NCBI RefSeq assembly: GCF_009834535.1
Contig: NC_045696.1
Location: 82,834,001 to 82,898,000 of the forward strand
Direction of reading: 5' to 3'
From: Camelus ferus
Taxonomy: Eukaryota
Length of the DNA stretch: 64,000 bases
In this document: in pieces, positions 18,346 to 62,900 of the stretch
Position numbering within the stretch: the first letter of the stretch is position 1
Layout of the letters: every line of letters begins with the position of its first letter
Position numbers and translations under genes: made by a program
Notes under the pieces: model-generated
Told to the model about the DNA's origin: nothing
Databases searched by the model: none
Seen by the model: only the letters and a program-made list of their open reading frames with translations

Positions 18346-20869
18346 CTCACCTTCCTAAAGAATTTGAAGTTTCCTGCCTTTTTATTTGTGATGTGAAATC
18401 TACTTAAAAGTGCTGACACCATGGTAGCTGCTTAGTAAATATGTACTGAATCAAATGTTTGAAATCCCTCGGATTTAGGACTTTCGATACAGAGTCTTGG
18501 GAAATGCCTTCCCTCCTTCAGATATGCAATAAGGATGTGCAAGTCTGTTTGATGGTCGAGACGAATGAGAAGAAAAGGAAGTGAGGAGGCTCTAATACTG
18601 ATGAAGAAAAAATAAAATTCTTTCATCTTTTGTCCCATGCAACTCAAATACCTATGATCTAAAAATATTCCTCTCAGATTTGATATGTGAGAGGAGATGA
18701 TCAAGGGAAGGGACATTTTAACAGGACATGTGATAAATAGCAGGAGGCCATTTCTCTTCTGGGTTATTACAAGTTGATCTCGGTGACTTACTAGCCAGTC
18801 GGTATGTAAGTACCCTGTGCATCGAAATAACCACACATACCTAAAGACACTTGTGCACCACATACAGTGTGTGCCTGTCTATTGCATGTATGTGTACAAA
18901 TATGAATATTGACATTAAAATTAGATAGTAAAACCTTTTGATTTAGTGCCAACTGAGCCTAGCCACAGTAAATTGAACATCTGAGCTATCTTGGCATGCC
19001 TTAGCTTTATAAGGCCTTGTAAATGGCTACATAAATATTTTCTAAATGGAAATCATATTAGACCGGAGGCTTAGGGTGCTGTAGATAGGAAAGAGAGGTA
19101 AATAATTGCCTTTTTATTTTGTGACCATATTAGAAATGCCAGACAATGGAAAAACTAGTAAAATTAAAAAGGAATTCCTGAAGGAAAACAACGTGCTGGC
19201 TCACACAGAGCCTTTCTTCTTCGTCTGCCCTGCCGATCGATGTTGACTACATTCCCAGCGACTCGGTTTCACAGTGAACGACTCAGGCTGCTGTGGGTCT
19301 GGGACAGAGATGGCGTGGGGCTGGGGGGACTCAGGAGACACCATGCTGTCAGTGAGTGCTCCTGCCTGCTAAGCCGACAGCTGAAAAAGAGAGACCAACC
19401 GCACGACTGAGAGAAATATAATATGTCCTTTTAACGAGTTGAATTTGAAGAACTTTTTCAGGAAAGGGGAACTGAGGCCCTTCTGAAGGGTTTTATTGAT
19501 GACAGTTGCCAGCCTACACCTTGAAGAGCTGGTAAAAGGTGCCCAACATAGATATTTGTCAGTTTACTGCGAAGAAATTCTCTCCTTTGAAAAACTTTCG
19601 GTGGCATGCTACGGAGATGGCCCTGTTGGTACAGCCTTATTTAACTGTTGACTTTGTGTTGATTTTATTATTCAAGTAGGTCCCACCTATTGTTTCAGAG
19701 GTCAATGAGCTTTTTCATTGCATTTCATCTGAACCTTAGCCCCTGGTCAACCACACTCTTGCTTCTTAGGCAAACATTCTGCAGCAGCTGGGTTGGAAAC
19801 TATCATTCCACACATCACAGCAAATCTCAGACAACTTGAGTTTAATTATTCCCTGTTGACTGGCTTTGCCATTACTAAAATCTCTTTTAACACTGACATT
19901 GAGAGTGGAAGTGTAGGGTTTCTGAGCTCTCAGCACAATAGCTTTCGCATTAATATCTCACGGTTTATTTCATACAGCAAAGGTCTGTTTGTGGTGTCTA
20001 AAATTTGTTTAAACATAAATTGCAAAGAAAGGCATGGCTGACACAATACAGCTCTATACAGTGGAGAGAAAGGCTGTGTGAATAGGCTTAGATACTTTTT
20101 AAAAAGTACATTCCTCTTATAAGAAAAAAAAATTTTGCCTTTCAAGTGCATGTCAAAGAGATTTTAATCACCCTTTTGTTTTTGTTCATTTTTTTAGAAC
20201 ACATTTATGTTTTATGACTTTGCTAAATAAATAATGTAGGTATAGAGTATCCCAAACTGAACTTTTCATGATGTTTAACACTCTGTAATTTCGTGATTAA
20301 TAGTGCCTAATCTGAATGTCCCATGAAAACTTTGTGCAGCAAGAGGTGTTCAGTGTTACTAAAGGTTAGCAACCTCACAAAAGGGACAGTTTAGTGATTG
20401 TTTCCAGGGAGCTTTATAGTCTCACAAGTTATAAGAAAAACAATAAAACTTTGGCATTGGATAGCTAGTGTAACATACCGTAGGATTTATCACTACCTAG
20501 AAATTAATGCAGAGAGAAAGAACTGAACAATTTATATTTTAAAAATTCATTTTGAAATATTAAACACGGGAGGACCTAGCATGTGGACACAACTGTTTTA
20601 AAGATAGTATGTATTTAGTGAATTTTATCTTAGCCGACAAACACCCCCAGATTCCACTAAATAATACACGGCCAGAATCTTCTGCTGCTGTCCTGGCCAT
20701 AAACTACTTTCCCCACCTGAGCACCCAACTTCTAGCTGATGCCTGTAGAACCCACTGAAATGTGGTAGGATTGACTCTGAGGAACCAAAGTCCTTCTTGA
20801 TGGTGGTATCTTGACTCTGCTCTATTTGAGAGTTAAGGCACATTACCAATTTCACAAGTAGTATTAAAA

Positions 20870-41359: not shown

Positions 41360-41810
41360 AATAATAATAGCTACTTTTAATTGATTGTACACTACGTGCC
41401 ATGTATGATTCGAAGTGATTAACATACATTGCCTCATTTCATTTTCCAAAAAAATAGAATGAGCTTATACTGAATTGTGGGGCGACTGGAACACAGTGAC
41501 GTTTAAGCAGGCGAGTGCGTGACAGTTGCCACGTGGGCAGATTAGTGGTGTTGAATATAAACTGGTGGGGGGCGGGTAACTGTTGGTCAGCATAGGAAGT
41601 CACTGTGATCATTCTCACTAGACATATCAAACATCCAAGCTAAGCATCCAGACTTGATAGGAATGAAAATCATGGAAGGACCTGATACATTTTTTCACCA
41701 AACACTTACTGAATACCTACTACACACCTGGTGTTATGTTAGGCCCCAGGCAATAGGGGCAAATGAGATAAACCCAATTCCTGCCTCCCCACCCCAGTAC
41801 AGTCCACCAG
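41360..41810 (-). mobile_element. MIR fragment followed by an L2 3' fragment
   Basis: ATAATAATAGCTACTTTTAATTGA...ACTACGTGCCA (MIR); CAAACACTTACTGAATACCTACTACACACCTGG (L2 end). Confidence 0.6.
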
Positions 41811-42279
41811 AGGGCATTGTCAAGAATAAATTTCTGGACCTGGATGACAAATACTGGCCTAAGATTAGTCCAGCGTGTATGTGTGTGGCCCCTACTCTGG
41901 TTTTTAGGGTTCTTGGGTCTCAGTGGTATCTCACCCCCATCTCAGAATTCTCCCTCTTACTGATTGGCAGAGAACACAGTCGGGGGGACAGAGCAAACTC
42001 AGCTGCAAGCCAGACAGAGACAGACATCTTCGAGGGTAGCACAGTTTGAGAGAAAAAAACATTTTTCTTAAAATTCTTCTCTTCCATAGGTCAGGGTAAG
42101 GATTAGGGCAGCTGACATTGGAATGGGAGAAAGAGGATAGAAAAATACTTAGACCTTGCCATTCCGCAAAATATCAACCAGACTATCTTCCTCATTATGT
42201 GTGTACGTAAGTCCATTCTAACCCATTACACAAGCACAAAAACTGTGAAACTTACAGTGTTTTGACCTGTTCCCACGAA

Positions 42280-45400: not shown

Positions 45401-46326
45401 CACTCAAACCTCATATTTTCCAATGCCTTTTTCCTGGTAAACAACAATTAACAGAACAGGACAGAAAAAACAATCATTCCTTCTGGAAAATGTTTTTAAA
45501 ATATGATTTAAAAAAAAAAGACATTGCTGACAAATCACTCGATGTTCTGCTTTTAAGCTTTACATTTGTTGCTGTATGTTCTCCTAGTTGGTCCCCTTAA
45601 TATTTAGATCATCTGTCCTGATACATGTTTGCAAATTAAAGCTGGTTTGAGATTATAGCAAAACCATTATTTTTAATAGCCCATTTCAAGGGCAGCGCTA
45701 AACACTGCAGAACACGCATGTTACTGATTACTGCTGAGCAGACAGCGGCTTTTGCAGATTAATTTGTAACTGGGAACTACTGTAAACAGATTTCACCAGA
45801 AATCCCGGGGAATAAAGGGAATTGGTGGTGGTATTTGTCTCCTTGTATTTATTTATTGTTTTAGAAACCTCCTGATGGAAAGCGAGCTAACCGGGGAGAA
45901 AACCGCCCTGCTGCAAAAACCTTTTCCTCCAGCCCTCCATCTCCTCTTCCACGTCAGTTTTGATCAGGGGAGGCAGGTCAGGGTCTTCTCCTAAAAGCTT
46001 ATTATTTGAATAGCCAGAGGCTCCTTTCATGAGAAATAAGGCCCTTCTAGCTACTCTGGGATATCAGGACCCTATTTTTAAACTTCAAGTTGTGTCAGGA
46101 AAAAGCGAGGTGATTGCTTTTACATGAAGTTATTATATAATCAAAGAGTAGAGGGGGCGTGGTGGGGAAGGAGAGGGAGAGGGAGCGGAGAGAAAGAAAC
46201 ATTGAGATTTGATGTTTGCCCAAGTCCTTTAGTCTTTCTCACAAGTTATTCAGTAGAGAATAAGACTGATGATGATAATATTAATAAATAATAATGATGA
46301 GGCCAAATAACCCCCTATCTCTCTAG

Positions 46327-46590
46327 ATCAATCTTCCAAGGACTAGGGAGAAAGTGTTAACTCTTTTGGCTCTATTTGGGGAAGAGAAATTCATACGTAG
46401 AAATAGCCTTAGCTCAGGCCGGTGTCTGCGGTTCTGGACTGCGGGGTGCACTCGTCCGGACCTGAGGCTCGGGAAGGCGCGGGAAGACGCGGGATCCCGC
46501 GCCAGGCGGAGGGCAGAGCCTGGCTGCTCGCGCCCGGCGGGCGGCAGAGGGTTCACCTGGGTGGCTGGAGCCGCGGGCGCCGCCACTTAA
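46327..46590 (+). other. MECOM: Orthologue of the MDS1-specific terminal exon (coding part to the first in-frame stop), frameshifted relative to human
   Basis: Acceptor ccccctatctctctAG at 46326. The exon frame starts INLPRTR (recalled human VHLPRSR). The +1 frame from 46367 reads WLYLGKRNSYVEIALAQAGVCGSGLRGALVRT*, versus recalled human WLYLGKRSSDVGIAFSQADVYMPGLQCAFLS* (17/31 identical). Confidence 0.8.
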
Positions 46591-46900
46591 TTCGGGGCGC
46601 AACGCCATCTACCGGCGTCATGACGCACCTGCAAATACCCAGACCTTGAAAGTCGCCCCGCCTCCCCCACCCGAACCCAATATAAGGGAAAAAAACTTGG
46701 AGGCCCTTTCCACGAAATCTTAATTTAGCCAGGACCTGCCACTGATTCCATGCGACCTTTTGTTTATCCACCGACGTTTCCTCCTTTTCAGAACAGCTTT
46801 GTAAAGGGCAAGGAGGTGGGGGCCAGGGGCTAGGGCTGGGGATTGGGGCGCTGAGCTCTCAGACCCCCTGATCAGGCCGCACTGTCTGAAGCAATCGGTT
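46400..46900. promoter_or_regulatory. CpG-rich island upstream of the EVI1 promoter
   Basis: GC-rich with dense CpG (e.g. ggcgcgggaagacgcgggatcccgcgcc) against an AT-rich, CpG-poor background. Confidence 0.8.
46603..46615 (-). promoter_or_regulatory. CTCF core motif about 2-2.7 kb upstream of the EVI1 first exons
   Basis: The minus strand reads CCGGTAGATGGCG, a full match to CCRSYAGRKGGCR, inside the CpG island. Confidence 0.75.
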
Positions 46901-48278
46901 CCCCAGATTACTTGTATTTAATACACAATGCATCATAAAACAAATCCCTCATCCTGACAGGAAGAAAATAGAACAGCTCATAGCTTGAGCCGGTCCAATT
47001 TATGGCTAAATTAAAAAAAAAAAAAAAAGGCTCCTACAATGGGCAAGTTGAGGAAGGGCAGGAAATCAATGGCAGCAAACCGGGAGCTCTTAAAGGTTCT
47101 CAAGCGCCGAACTCTATGGGAATATCTGACCGGGTTTTAGGTTATTTACAAAGGATTTTTCCTGTCCTACCTACCACTGCTGTGCGATTTTCCCTCAAAC
47201 AATGGCCATTATCTGAAATAACAGTTCAATGTCACAGATAACAGGCCCCCGAAACGAATTAGTCACCACCTCTTGTCATTTTCTCCCCCCCCCCGACATC
47301 CCTCCTTTTTGTTACTATTTTTGTTTTTAAATCAGCATTTTGGGGAAATATAGACCTACTAGATTTACACGTCTATTTGTTCTTGGAAAAAACAAAAAGG
47401 GACTTGTACTGTCCCCGTTTGCAGATGAAGTTTAACATAAACGGGCTTTCCATCCCCTCCTTCTCCACCTCCCCTCAAGTGTCCCTTGACTCGCTTACTT
47501 TGCTTAACTTTCCATTGTTGAGCTGAGAAATTGGGTTTTGTTCATTTGTTTTTATGAATGAAGTTTTGTGATAAAAAGCGTTTATTTCCATTTAACCAAA
47601 GGATTTTGCTAAAATTTCCAAGGTTGGCTAAAGGAAATCTTTAGACCCTTTTATTCTGTCACACATTCCCTATATTCTTCCTTCCCATGTTGTTTCTGAA
47701 ATGTGTTGATAAAAACTGACCATATATTAGAAAGTTAGGAATCACCGTATGGTGCTGATCCTTCCAGACAACATTCATGATGTTAAAAGTTTAAAAAAAT
47801 AATCTGAGTTATCAAATTGCTTAATTACACTTTGGGGCGTTCACGATATTTTAGTTAATGTATCAGAGAATATGGCAAAAACTCACCAGACAATCGTCAA
47901 CCTCTTTTAGCCCATAATACACTACTTGGGCAAGTTGTATGTAAATAATGTTTCAGGTTTTTCAATTCCTTCTTCTAAGAAAAATCCGTTTTAAAAAGTA
48001 CCATACTCTTCTGCTCACCTAACTATAATAATGGAGGGAGTACATTAGAGTACGAATTTCAGTGATAATAATAAATATTTAGCAGAAAACTAGAAATGTC
48101 CATTTCAACTTTTTAGGCTACTGTTTTCTGAGAATTTCTGAACTAATTCTGTTTAGCGTGAGCCAGCGTCTCTGTACCCTAACCTCATCCTCGCCCCCTG
48201 CAGCGCCCCACCCCCAGCCTTGGTGCACACACCCTCACACCCCGAAAGCACTTCTCCACCCCATCACTCCCATCCCCC

Positions 48279-48280
<2 letters not shown>

Positions 48281-48332
<52 letters not shown>
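48281..48332. repeat. (CA)26 perfect microsatellite in the EVI1 promoter region
   Basis: Uninterrupted CA repeat read directly. Confidence 0.97.
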
Positions 48333-48399: not shown

Positions 48400-49340
48400 T
48401 GCCTGGCGAGATCTCCCCATTGGTTGTTTACCCAGAGAAATCTACATGTTTAAGGGGGATGGCGCATCCATAATCAGTCTGTCCCTATAGGACTGGGTCT
48501 TGGCGACCTTTTTGTGACCTCTCCCTCCAGAGGAGGCTGCTGTCACTTTAAAAATTTACTGAAAGAGGAGCCCGTCTGGCTTCCGATCACTCTGGGCGGC
48601 GGGAGATAGCTCCCTTTCTCCCTCGCCCCGGGTTCTTTCTGGATGGCCGAGCAGATCCTCTTTAAAGAGACAGTCCATGAAATAGAAACCCGGCGGCTGA
48701 GCTAGGAGTTGCGAAAGGGGACGATCCCGTGAGGGTCTAGGACCGGGGAAGGAGCTGCTGAGGATCAGAAAGGGGGCTAGAGCTCCCCTCGCCTCCCCAG
48801 GCCCCCCACCTTTTCAAACTCCCTCCTCCTGCCTGTATTTTCCCCCACCCCCCCAACCCCCCCGTGGAACTGGGAGAGAGAAGTGGAAGAAGTTTTAGTG
48901 GGTTTCAGATAACTTTCATTACACATCGGGCTGATAAGAGCAAGAGAAAGTGAGAAAAGAGGGAGGTGATGTGAACCAGAAGGAATAGCTCGGAGCTCAT
49001 TTAGGAAGGGGGAAAAAAGCCAAAACACACCAAACCCGGGTCACTTCAGACGAGAGGAGACTTCATTTCTGGTCTTAAAAATACACTGTTGGCGGACAAT
49101 AAATCTGAAACGCGTGGTCCTGGCAAGCAGATCCCAGAGACGGACAAAGTTATCAGAGACCATTCGGAAATCGAGACGCGAGGCTTTTTTTTTTTTTTTT
49201 CCGTAATATTTCGAAATGTGGCTCGGGATCGTATGAAAGGACTTTCGTGCAGGAAAGCTGGGGGCTGCTGATCCTTATATTTTGTTTAATTCTTCTGTGA
49301 TTGCCTTTTATTGCTGAGTTGAGGCCATAGAAATCTGAAG
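48400..49340 (+). other. MECOM: EVI1 non-coding exon 1a (3' end firm, 5' end approximate)
   Basis: Strong donor AAG|GTAAGA at 49341, preceded by TATTGCTGAGTTGAGGCCATAGAAATCTGAAG, which matches the recalled human EVI1_1a 3' end. The TSS cannot be determined from sequence. Confidence 0.7.
48495..48520 (-). promoter_or_regulatory. Composite IR3/DR5 retinoic-acid response element
   Basis: The minus strand reads AGGTCA-caaaa-AGGTCG (DR5, 48504-48520). GGGTCT-tgg-CGACCT forms an overlapping imperfect inverted repeat. An IR/DR RARE is described for human EVI1 exon 1a. Confidence 0.75.
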
Positions 49341-49439
49341 GTAAGAGAACTCACTTTAAAAAAAAAAAAAGTCTTGGCGATGCGCATAGTTTGTAACTTC
49401 GGACAGTTTCCTGCCTTGGCACCCCTTCTCCGGGGCGCC

Positions 49440-49567
49440 CCCCGCCCCCCAGCCTTCTTTTCCTACTTGCCCGCAGTCTCGCGGAGCCCTGTGCTTATCT
49501 ACGTCGCTGGGACTGGCGATTTCCTTGTTCCTCCTGTGCAACGGTGCGGTCTGGACGCGTCTCCGGG
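49440..49567 (+). other. MECOM: EVI1 non-coding exon 1b (5' end approximate)
   Basis: TGCGGTCTGGACGCGTCTCCGGG followed by donor GTGGGT at 49568; matches the recalled human EVI1_1b 3' end. Confidence 0.7.
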
Positions 49568-49754
49568 GTGGGTCGTCCGGCCTTCGGTGGGTCTCTCTGC
49601 CGGCTGTCGGCCTCCTTTCCTCGCGCTCTTCTCCTGCTTCCCCTCCCTCCGTGTGTCTGTCCGTCGGTATCAGGGACGCAGAAGGTGGGGTTGCCAAAAT
49701 CTGAATTCCTGGCACCGGCCACGCGACTTTGGAGCCGCTTTCGGCCGAGTTCCA

Positions 49755-49834
49755 CCTTGCCAAGTAATAGCTTTGCTGTCCAACATCGTGTGCTGCTTCG
49801 CGAGAAAGTCACATTCGGACCCTTTGGCGAGATT
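49755..49834 (+). other. MECOM: EVI1 non-coding exon 1c (also the first exon of the 1d variant)
   Basis: CCTTGCCAAGTAATAGCTTTGCTGTCCAACATCGTGTGCTGCTTCGCGAGAAAGTCACATTCGGACCCTTTGGCGAGATT matches a recalled human EVI1 transcript 5' end. The GT donor at 49835 is weak (GTGGGG). Confidence 0.7.
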
Positions 49835-50879: not shown

Positions 50880-50883
50880 TGTG

Positions 50884-50931
<48 letters not shown>
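50880..50931. repeat. (TG)n microsatellite, about 25 units with one interruption
   Basis: gtgtgtgtgtgtgtgtgtttgtgtgtgt...; ends about 90 nt upstream of the 51021 acceptor. Confidence 0.95.
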
Positions 50932-52280: not shown

Positions 52281-52415
52281 ATCTTAGATGAGTTTTGCAA
52301 TGTGAAGTTCTGCATAGATGCTAGTCAACCAGATGTAGGAAGCTGGCTCAAGTACATCAGGTTCGCTGGCTGTTATGATCAGCACAACCTCGTTGCATGC
52401 CAGATAAATGATCAG
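52281..52415 (+). CDS. MECOM: MECOM internal exon (MDS1-EVI1 exon 3 = EVI1 exon 2), PR/SET domain part: ILDEFCNVKFCIDASQPDVGSWLKYIRFAGCYDQHNLVACQINDQ; coding in MDS1-EVI1, 5' UTR in most EVI1 transcripts
   Basis: Polypyrimidine tract and acceptor tctcatcttcttccttctAG at 52280, donor CAG|GTATGT at 52416, 135 bp open in phase 0. The peptide matches recalled human MECOM except Y->C at residue 6. Confidence 0.98.
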
Positions 52416-59960: not shown

Positions 59961-62900
59961 AAAATATAACTCAAAAATTTGCTAAAGCAAATCTACATCA
60001 CCACTGCCTTTTAGCCCTAGCATAGCTTTGCAAATACTAATTGAATGGATATTCTTTTGGCATTTGGAACTGATGTCAAGGTTTGATTAAAATAAATCAG
60101 ATATAATAATTATCTTTAGAGCAATTCTTATATACATGTATAATTTTATATTTACGCCTTAAATTGTGAATTTCACCAATAGTAGAAGTGAACAGTTCAG
60201 AGGATTTCTAGTTTTATTTTCAAAGATCTGAATGACTTAGAATTAAAAAAAAAAATTAAGAAATTTCACTAGTGTGCTATATTTTAGCAAAATTTAAAGA
60301 TAAAAGAATACAAAAGATCTATTAAAACACTTACTATAAACATTTATTCTTATAAATGAAGTATTCAGAGGTCCAGATATAATATCCATATTAAATGGAT
60401 AGAAATACAGCTTTCTGGAAAAATTAAAAAGAGTCCAGCAAGACATTGGGAAAAATAATTTTTTTACATGATAAAATAAAAAGACCACCTCAACTTCTGA
60501 AAGTTTCAAATGTATGGAGAGTTAGGTCATGTTCATAAGATGTTGTGTTTCTGGAATTTGGTGTATTAGTTACCAAATAGAAAACTCTAACAGAGTTAAC
60601 ACAGTTTTAAAATATTTATTGACTTTTTAAAAAATGGAATTCCCATATAATCCTATTTTCTTTATTACAAGGCCCCATTCCTCTAATTTTTCACCTTATA
60701 TTGGGAGGGATTGAGTTTTTCCCTTCTAATAGAGTGATCTGAGAGAGACAGATAAAAATAATAAATCAACAACCCTTTTGTATTAATTCCAACTTTCTCT
60801 AAGTGTTTGAGACTTTTGATCCCCTCTTTATATACTTGAGTTGAATTCATCACAAGATCCCAGATCCAACACATTTTTATTTTGGTTCCAGATAACTTTT
60901 TCCATAAAACCCCCTGATGGAAGAGACCTGTTAACTCTTTTATGGAATTTAACAGAGTAACTGATTCCCTTCCATTTCTCTCCAGCACAAAACCAGAGAG
61001 GTTATATTAGTAGCGTCTCTGCTTCTGGCACATAACTCAGATGCCATTAATTCACAGGACTGCAATGTTGCCAAAATTTGGAGAATACACTGATTTTAAA
61101 GACATTGTGATTGTATTTGTCTAAAAGAGTGGCCAGTCATACTTAATAGACAACCCTGCAGAAGCTGCATAAATTACTTCTCTCCTCTGTTATATTTTCA
61201 TTTGCCAAAAGACCTATTTTATCACGTAAAAGCATAGATGTGACCTCTTATTTTCTGAAAGGCTTGATTCCTCCAAGATTACGTTCCATCATCCCCCCCA
61301 CATAATTGCTTTGAGGCAACAGACTGTCATGTTTTCATTAAAACTACTCCTCTCACTTCTCGAACGCCTGCTGGTGTATTTATTGCTAGAATGTAAACCA
61401 GCTTTGTATGTAGACATTGCTGAATTCAAGTTTTCAGATCATACTTTGGGGCCATCATAATTACAGGAGGAAAAAACATAATTTTACTTAAGTCTCTCTA
61501 AGATCCGAAGAGATGAGATATAGTGAAGATGGCGAGTGGTAGCAACACCTTGGAAAAAAACCACTGGATTTGTAAGGGTGGTAGATGGGACTTCGAGGCA
61601 CATTCTTACTCCGATAGGAGGAACCTTGCCCAGAATCTGCCCTCATTACGTCGGGCTCTTGCCAGTTCTTTTCAAACCTCAGTTTCATGAGCACCATAAA
61701 AATTCACTTAAAATCGAAAAGAACACCCTGAAGTTAAAACCCACTCTGCTTTGCCTTGCCTTCCGTGGCCTGGAATGTCACCTTTTACCTCCAGTAGATA
61801 AAGCCAACATCAACACTCTTCCGTGTCTTTTATTTTTTATGCACTCAATATTCTTCACATGACAATCTGGACACTTAAAGGGAAATTACAGTAGTGATCT
61901 ATGTCCCGGCGAAGAGAACTGTCTTTCTAATACACAGTTACAACATATCCATCATTTTCTTTTGTTGCTTGGACCGTTCACATTGGATTGAGTAAATCTA
62001 AAATGGAATTAAAAGAGACATGATTAATAATGAACTCCAAAGAAACAGTGATATCATAATCCTCTCTTCCAGTGATCTCGCTTGTGTATCTAAGCAGCAT
62101 TCCCCAACAGAGACAACCGTACTGTTTGACAGTCTTGCGGGATGTTGTCTCTTTAACCTCACTATTTCCGAGAAGCCACCGAAAAGTTCTAATATGTCAC
62201 AATTCAAATGTCAACATGTTGTTGGAAAGGAAGCTAATAAGTTAAACCTTTGAGAGATGCCAAGAGAAGAGGTGATTCAAACTGTTGAGAGAAGTCCATT
62301 GTTTTCTAAGGGGAAATGGAACTCTAGAATGAAACGGGGTACTTATAAGCGTTTAACTGGAAGGGTTAGGAGAAAAAAGCAAACGGACGCTCATTTTTTT
62401 TTTTTTTTTTAATCTGGTAACTTTTTGAGTAGAACTATGCCTCTCAGCATACTTCCAAAGAAAGGAAAATGTGAAGATTAGGGTTAATAAGATACAAGCT
62501 GTAAACTTGCTGGTTTTCATAGAAACAGCACATTACAAGGTGTAATTTTCCTGAGACGGTCTGGATTCTACATATAGATAGAGATAAAGAATCTTAGATT
62601 AAATTATAACGTATCAGAGTAACATTTTATGTTTGGCATTATTTTCTATAAACCAACTTGATGTCATTAAATTACTGTTGCCTGAAAAAAAAAGATTTTA
62701 TTTTGACAGGGAAGAAACTAATCAGAAAATTCTCCTTGAGTTATTTTTTGAATTTAGCACAATTTTATGCTCTGGGCTTTTTAAAGAAAAATAAACAATT
62801 GGACTTCAGAGCCACCTACTGGAATGAAGAGGCACGTACTTATGCTTAATGTCCTCTGTTTTTCGAAAGATAAACAAACAGATAAATATAATTAAAGTTA

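What the first reader, a model, noticed from the sequence alone, without database searches (positions are those of the whole stretch)
46327..46590. MDS1 terminal exon is present but frameshifted, giving a different 87-aa tail
Seen: an intact acceptor at 46326. The spliced phase-0 frame runs 87 codons (INLPRTREKVLTLLALFGEEKFIRR...AAGAAT*, stop at 46588-46590). The +1 frame from 46367 carries WLYLGKRNSYVEIALAQAGV...RT*. Recalled: human MDS1 ends VHLPRSRRVSVHSWLYLGKRSSDVGIAFSQADVYMPGLQCAFLS. The Trp codon is 40 nt into the exon here versus 39 in human, a net +1 shift. Inference: the splice site and DNA are retained but the peptide is not. The MDS1-only transcript may therefore work as a splicing/termination decoy that stops long MDS1 transcripts just before the EVI1 promoter and tunes the PR+/PR- ratio, rather than as a protein.
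Basis: partly seen in the sequence, partly recalled or inferred. Interest (0 to 1): 0.72.

Follow-up and report, generated by a model that had tools for sequence, protein, structure and literature searches.

The report
MDS1 last exon with drifting frame
This mammal carries the counterpart of the last exon of the human MDS1 transcript in a reading frame that differs from apes but matches a lemur gene model, and the DNA is likely kept because it overlaps a known control site of the neighbouring EVI1 promoter, so the finding is modest.

Summary
Observation confirmed. The acceptor ends at 46326, the spliced frame runs 87 codons, and the +1 frame matches human and gibbon MDS1 tails. An assembly error is unlikely.

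The frame is not peculiar to this animal: a Lemur catta model reads the exon in the window's spliced frame (24/53 identical). Two indel sites lie in the first 41 bases: -1/+2 against apes, -1/+1 against lemur. Single-step parsimony makes the ape tail the derived one. Tail identity to lemur is 24/54, against 116/125 in the upstream exons, which is what neutral drift gives.

The exon lies in a CpG island. Its stop codon is 13 bases from a CTCF-type motif that maps to the published EVI1 enhancer-docking site (PMC8479123). That explains DNA retention without a decoy role.

Splicing and poly(A) use in this species remain untested. No earlier scan note covered this locus.

The parts
46311..46326 (+). 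3' splice-site-like sequence (pyrimidine tract and AG at 46325-46326), orthologue of the MDS1 last-exon acceptor
   Evidence: human, gibbon and lemur tails align from 46327
46327..46590 (+). Phase-0 open frame, 87 codons plus TAA; the first 53 codons are collinear with the lemur model's tail
46345..46348 (+). Indel site A: one base fewer than in human, gibbon and lemur (exact base not resolved)
   Evidence: primer register
46362..46367 (+). Indel site B, pyrimidine/T-run: 6 bases here, 5 inferred in lemur, 4 in human
46367..46465 (+). +1 frame matching the ape MDS1 tail; its TGA (46463-46465) corresponds to the gibbon stop position
46301..46820 (.). CpG-island-like stretch containing the exon's open frame (62.5% GC, 23 CpG in 46327-46590)
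46573..46592 (+). Best local match (14/20) of the published guide RNA against the EVI1-promoter CTCF site; it spans the TAA stop
   Evidence: not above chance window-wide, placement rests on neighbouring primers
46603..46615 (-). CTCF-type motif (1 mismatch to a recalled 13-base consensus), likely orthologue of the CTCF EVI1_PR docking site
   Evidence: PMC8479123 passages and supplementary file 3; primer at 46638-46657, 18/20
47010..47028 (+). First ATTAAA downstream of the exon's stop, running into a genomic run of 16 A (candidate poly(A) signal or internal-priming site)
48070..48075 (+). First AATAAA downstream of the stop
49338..49346 (+). Strong donor (8/9 consensus, GT at 49341), likely end of an EVI1 first exon
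   Evidence: exon identity inferred
52281..52415 (+). EVI1 exon 2 (PR-domain remainder, phase-0 acceptor), the competing acceptor for MDS1 exon 2
   Evidence: 100% identical to mammalian MECOM proteins

Best explanation
[quoted passage not shown] Shown: position in MECOM, intact AG, homology to human, gibbon and lemur tails, two indel sites, neutral-level peptide divergence, and primer mapping of the docking region. Inferred: any MDS1 transcript that uses this acceptor instead of EVI1 exon 2 gives a truncated half-PR-domain protein with an arbitrary tail. Inferred: the acceptor is a tolerated minor splice choice in open promoter chromatin, not a selected switch. Inferred: the ape tail arose by a 1-nt loss in the T-run after the split from lemurs.
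For: Three indel states in four species within 41 bases. Tail identity window/lemur 24/54 against 116/125 for exons 1-2 (dromedary P0026 as stand-in; Fisher p=6e-12), within the simulated neutral range at 25-30% DNA divergence. The untranslated +1 frame matches gibbon 19/32 and human 17/31, better than the in-frame lemur match, so peptide likeness is a shadow of DNA likeness. Only 3 of 264 fetched MECOM-type proteins use this exon. No Pfam family and no atlas hit of 0.9 or more for the 87-aa tail. PMC3561350 (passages) found no MDS exon 3 in Xenopus. PMC7985498 (passages) calls MDS1 protein function unknown. PMC8479123 places an essential CTCF site 2.6 kb upstream of the EVI1 start, in 'forward' orientation. 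Its forward primers map to the window's minus strand, as does the motif, which lies 2.7 kb before the 49341 donor. Its primers match at 46638-46657 (18/20), 46984-47002 (18/19) and 47031-47050 (19/20), against shuffled maxima of 15-16.
Against: Window and lemur keep one open frame for 54 codons through compensating -1/+1 indels, which selection for frame would also give. By chance a shared net frame is about 1 in 3 and no stop in 54 codons 0.23-0.45. The first five codons are nearly invariant in all four species. Human/gibbon tails are 40/44 identical against 110/114 in the body, not clearly relaxed. Lemur DNA was not seen; its indels are inferred from a predicted protein whose RNA support is unknown. 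The CTCF motif count is not above chance (3 matches; 7 of 100 shuffles reach 3). The guide match (14/20) equals the shuffled mean, and three other published oligos (both upstream deletion guides, one reverse primer) did not map above chance. The 264 proteins are redundant, include non-mammals and gene calls on raw contigs, and come from partly listed clusters.
Confidence: 0.7

Rival explanations
1. The window/lemur frame is the ancestral, selected coding tail of an MDS1 protein, and apes carry a frameshifted version.
For: Same net frame and 54 open codons in two lineages; compensating indels 17 bases apart; 87 open codons has P 0.04-0.07.
Against: 44% identity against 93% in the body; stop positions differ (54 against 87 codons); no other non-ape model with this tail among 264 proteins; none found with the tail as query (weak evidence by the tool's own note); no family or atlas support.
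Confidence: 0.12
2. One reading: the exon is a selected splicing/termination decoy that ends MDS1 transcripts before the EVI1 promoter and tunes the PR+/PR- ratio.
For: The acceptor is intact and as pyrimidine-rich as that of EVI1 exon 2 (12/13 each); no donor of 7/9 or better lies between 46327 and 48950, which fits a terminal exon; the peptide is not conserved.
Against: An AG surviving in three lineages needs no selection at this divergence (inference). No AATAAA until 48070; the nearest ATTAAA abuts a genomic A-run. The exon was not found in Xenopus although MDS/EVI and EVI both exist (PMC3561350). The two start sites are reported as coordinately regulated (PMC8428393 passage). The CTCF site accounts for the conserved DNA. 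None of 8 papers listed for MDS1+EVI1+'transcriptional interference' is about this exon by title or abstract start.
Confidence: 0.1
3. The shift is an assembly error in a homopolymer.
For: The +2 lies in a T-run.
Against: Unflagged runs of five studies hold 0.98-1.00 of the sampled words, one at 1.00; lemur gives a third state at the same run.
Confidence: 0.02

Closest known systems
Human MDS1 exon 3 / MECOM isoform 9 (EAW78549.1, P0239; 169 aa)
   Same: Same locus position, same phase-0 acceptor, homologous DNA over at least 135 bases.
   Different: Net +1 shift, an 87-codon instead of a 44-codon tail; use of the acceptor is not shown in this species.
Lemur catta MECOM-like model XP_045395574.1 (P0124)
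   Same: Same exon, same net frame, 24/53 identical.
   Different: Two compensating indels inferred; stops after 54 codons; a predicted model only.
CTCF EVI1_PR enhancer-docking site (Ottema et al. 2021, PMC8479123; passages and supplementary file 3 read)
   Same: Motif orientation, distance to the EVI1 first-exon region and primer positions agree.
   Different: Binding was shown in human cells only. The passages I read do not mention that the site lies in the MDS1 last exon; the main supplementary PDF could not be read.

Membership tests
Orthologue of MDS1 terminal exon (exon 3) | Lies in MECOM upstream of EVI1 exon 2 | tested here: met
   EVI1 exon 2 at 52281-52415
Orthologue of MDS1 terminal exon (exon 3) | Homology to the human tail starting at the acceptor | tested here: met
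Orthologue of MDS1 terminal exon (exon 3) | Intact phase-0 3' splice site | tested here: met
Orthologue of MDS1 terminal exon (exon 3) | Spliced to MDS1 exon 2 in this species | not tested
   No read-level data obtained; no non-primate protein model with this tail
Orthologue of MDS1 terminal exon (exon 3) | Ends at a poly(A) site before the EVI1 promoter | tested here: inconclusive
   ATTAAA 47010 beside a genomic A16, AATAAA 48070
Protein-coding exon under purifying selection | Reading frame preserved across lineages | tested here: not met
   Apes differ from window and lemur; three indel states
Protein-coding exon under purifying selection | Peptide conserved above neutral expectation | tested here: not met
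   24/54 against a neutral 0.46-0.53 and a body value of 116/125
CTCF EVI1_PR docking site orthologue | CTCF motif antisense to MECOM about 2.6 kb before the EVI1 start | tested here: met
   46603-46615, minus strand; 2.7 kb before the 49341 donor; start site itself not mapped
CTCF EVI1_PR docking site orthologue | Published oligos bracket the motif | tested here: met
   Downstream oligos 18/20, 18/19, 19/20; upstream 46348-46369 and 46508-46526 (2 and 1 of 200 shuffles as good); guide and three others not above chance
CTCF EVI1_PR docking site orthologue | CTCF/cohesin occupancy and looping | not testable with these tools
   Shown in human cells only (PMC8479123)
Regulatory decoy / attenuator terminal exon | Regulated use that changes the full-length to short isoform ratio | not testable with these tools
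   Needs RNA data and perturbation
Regulatory decoy / attenuator terminal exon | Splice signals conserved above background across many species | tested here: inconclusive
   Only three lineages; two metagenome pattern scans found no further orthologues

The most novel reading that the evidence does not exclude
The MDS1 last exon is a chromatin-coupled switch: CTCF bound just behind its stop codon slows polymerase and favours this acceptor and termination, while read-through MDS1-EVI1 transcription disturbs the same docking site, so one element sets both the PR+/PR- balance and enhancer docking at EVI1. On this reading the human MDS1 tail is an ape-side frameshift product with no role of its own. 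CTCF-aided exon inclusion is recalled from CD45 and was not tested here.
Probability: 0.08. Interest if true: 0.6.

Novelty: new member of a known kind. Interest (0 to 1): 0.18.

Why it matters
It suggests that the curated human MDS1 isoform ends in a lineage-specific, probably accidental peptide, so effort on an 'MDS1 protein function' may be misplaced. It also places the MDS1 last exon on top of the CTCF site that leukaemias use to activate EVI1, so edits of that site also alter this exon's RNA. Both are useful annotations, not a new mechanism. Non-conservation of exon 3 is already in print for Xenopus (PMC3561350). I found no paper on the mammalian frame pattern or the overlap in ten searches of the open-access library; subscription papers were not searched.

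Tried and rejected
87-aa tail against longer proteins: 0 of 1474 candidates at E<=1. The 34-aa +1 frame against 1.84 billion representatives: 1 hit, an unrelated repeat protein P0238, rejected. No whole genome is held, so MDS1 exons 1-2 of this animal were not seen; dromedary P0026 stood in. Read-level evidence for junctions and for other mammals' indels was not obtained. Two pattern scans of metagenome contigs for non-human orthologues gave 0 loci. Fifteen other alternative tails from gene models were tested by tblastn and none lies in the window at E<=0.01. Pfam gave 0 families and the atlas a best score of 0.75. Fears 1996 (PMC39995) is not held. An internal poison-exon model is disfavoured because no donor of 7/9 or better occurs before 48950. 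A human AATAAA seen in a published primer is antisense to MECOM and is not a poly(A) signal.

Full report
Locus. The window is part of MECOM on the plus strand. EVI1 exon 2 lies at 52281-52415 and its 45 codons are identical to mammalian MECOM proteins. MDS1 exons 1-2 are outside the window and no whole genome is held.

Observation. AG ends at 46326 and the phase-0 frame runs 87 codons to TAA 46588-46590. The +1 frame carries the ape-like peptide from 46367 to TGA 46463-46465. The acceptor has 12 of 13 pyrimidines, as has EVI1 exon 2; 21 of 649 comparable sites score as well. The human MDS1 isoform (P0239, EAW78549.1) was retrieved as a cluster member of gibbon P0135 and equals the recalled tail. 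An 87-codon frame arises in 3.8% of block shuffles and 7% of dinucleotide shuffles of this GC-rich stretch. In one search, 20 of 24 listed runs hold part of 46200-47100 and 17 hold half or more of 86 words. Runs of five studies not flagged as possible sources reach 0.98-1.00, which makes an assembly error unlikely.

Which frame is derived. A search with MDS1 exons 1-2 among proteins of 103-331 aa gave 216 hits, 120 listed. Twenty clusters were opened; two were listed only in part (15 of 73, 15 of 26). Of 340 proteins fetched, 264 had a recognisable MDS1 exon-2 end: 108 continue into EVI1 exon 2, 123 run into the intron or stop, 30 have other tails, and 3 use this exon (human, gibbon, lemur). 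These rows are redundant and not a species survey. The lemur tail aligns without gaps to the window's phase-0 frame (24/53, E 4e-15 pairwise). The gibbon tail aligns to the +1 frame (19/30) and not to phase 0. Frameshift-aware alignment gives -1 near 46345-46348 against all three primates, then +2 (apes) or +1 (lemur) in the T-run 46362-46367. A later -2 against human appeared only at the lower gap costs, and a +3 near the lemur tail's end at all three. A published human primer shows the same 2-nt gap. The run is thus 6, 5 and 4 bases long in window, lemur and human. With single-base steps the primate ancestor had 5, so the ape tail is derived (inference). The older ancestor is not resolved: of four equally short histories two give the window/lemur frame, one the ape frame and one a third frame. 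The match with lemur may therefore be coincidence. Lemur DNA was not seen, and the RNA support for its model is unknown.

Is the tail under selection? Window against lemur: 24/54 in the tail, 116/125 in the body (Fisher p=6e-12). Random mutation of the exon at 25-30% gives 0.53-0.46 identity and leaves 54 codons open 30-23% of the time. The untranslated +1 frame matches gibbon 19/32 and human 17/31 (all). Pfam finds no family in the 87-aa tail and only a partial PR domain in human and lemur MDS1; the atlas gives nothing of 0.9 or more. Against this reading: the compensating indels, the near-invariant first five codons, and human/gibbon tails at 40/44 against 110/114 in the body.

Why the DNA is there. 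The open frame lies in a CpG-island-like run, 46301-46820. A CTCF-type motif sits on the minus strand at 46603-46615, 13 bases behind the stop; the consensus is recalled, and three matches in 64 kb are not above chance. PMC8479123 reports a 'forward' CTCF site 2.6 kb upstream of the EVI1 start, whose deletion or mutation removes enhancer looping and EVI1 expression (passages). Ten oligos from its supplementary file 3 were mapped. Three match strongly downstream of the motif (46638-46657 18/20; 46984-47002 18/19; 47031-47050 19/20). Two match inside the exon (46348-46369, 46508-46526; 2 and 1 of 200 shuffles as good). The guide and an overlapping primer fit best locally at 46573-46598 but not above window-wide chance. 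Three did not map above chance. Forward primers fall on the window's minus strand, so orientation agrees, and the motif lies 2.7 kb before a strong donor at 49341. The exon and the docking region therefore overlap, and the highest identities lie behind the stop. The paper's main supplementary PDF could not be read and may show the motif position or the overlap.

Decoy model. For it: an intact acceptor and no good donor before 48950. Against it: no AATAAA until 48070, and the nearest ATTAAA (47010) runs into a genomic A16 that could prime oligo-dT. PMC3561350 found no exon 3 in Xenopus by RACE or genome search (passages). PMC8428393 reports coordinate regulation of the two start sites (passage). 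No junction or 3'-end data were obtained, so use of the exon in this species is open.

Papers seen. Passages: PMC8479123 (plus supplementary file 3 whole), PMC7564095 (plus section 1.1), PMC10553128, PMC11490020, PMC8428393, PMC12642003, PMC7985498, PMC3561350. Not held: PMC39995. Reviews disagree on MDS1 exon numbering; I follow PMC3561350 (three exons, stop in the third).

Verdict. A real orthologue of a known exon with an unstable frame, lying on a known regulatory site. Drift plus regulatory retention 0.70, ancestral coding tail 0.12, selected decoy 0.10, assembly error 0.02. New member of a known kind; interest 0.18.

Noticed in passing
window 41804-41816 (+) and 62810-62822 (-): Two further CTCF-type motif matches (0 and 1 mismatch); the first points towards the 46603 motif. 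The count is not above chance.
   Followed up: no
window 47010-47028: ATTAAA directly followed by a genomic run of 16 A, between two well-conserved primer sites; a possible internal-priming origin for short MDS1 cDNA ends.
   Followed up: partly
P0137, P0138, P0154, P0283, P0309: Gene models of lynx, dromedary, two bats and a beaked whale share another tail after MDS1 exon 2; the four tested do not lie in this window. It may be a second alternative exon or a shared prediction artefact.
   Followed up: partly
P0122, P0127: Marmot and grass-rat MDS1-only models end with 6- and 2-residue tails unrelated to this exon's frames.
   Followed up: no
window 48643-49807: The N-terminus of a tamarin prediction (P0003) maps in three pieces to the EVI1 promoter and first-exon region, probably a mis-predicted translation of conserved non-coding DNA.
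   Followed up: no
window 19141-19420: Small isolated CpG-island-like run in the MDS1 intron.
   Followed up: no
window 48280-48331 and 50880-50931: Long CA and TG microsatellites on either side of the EVI1 promoter region.
   Followed up: no
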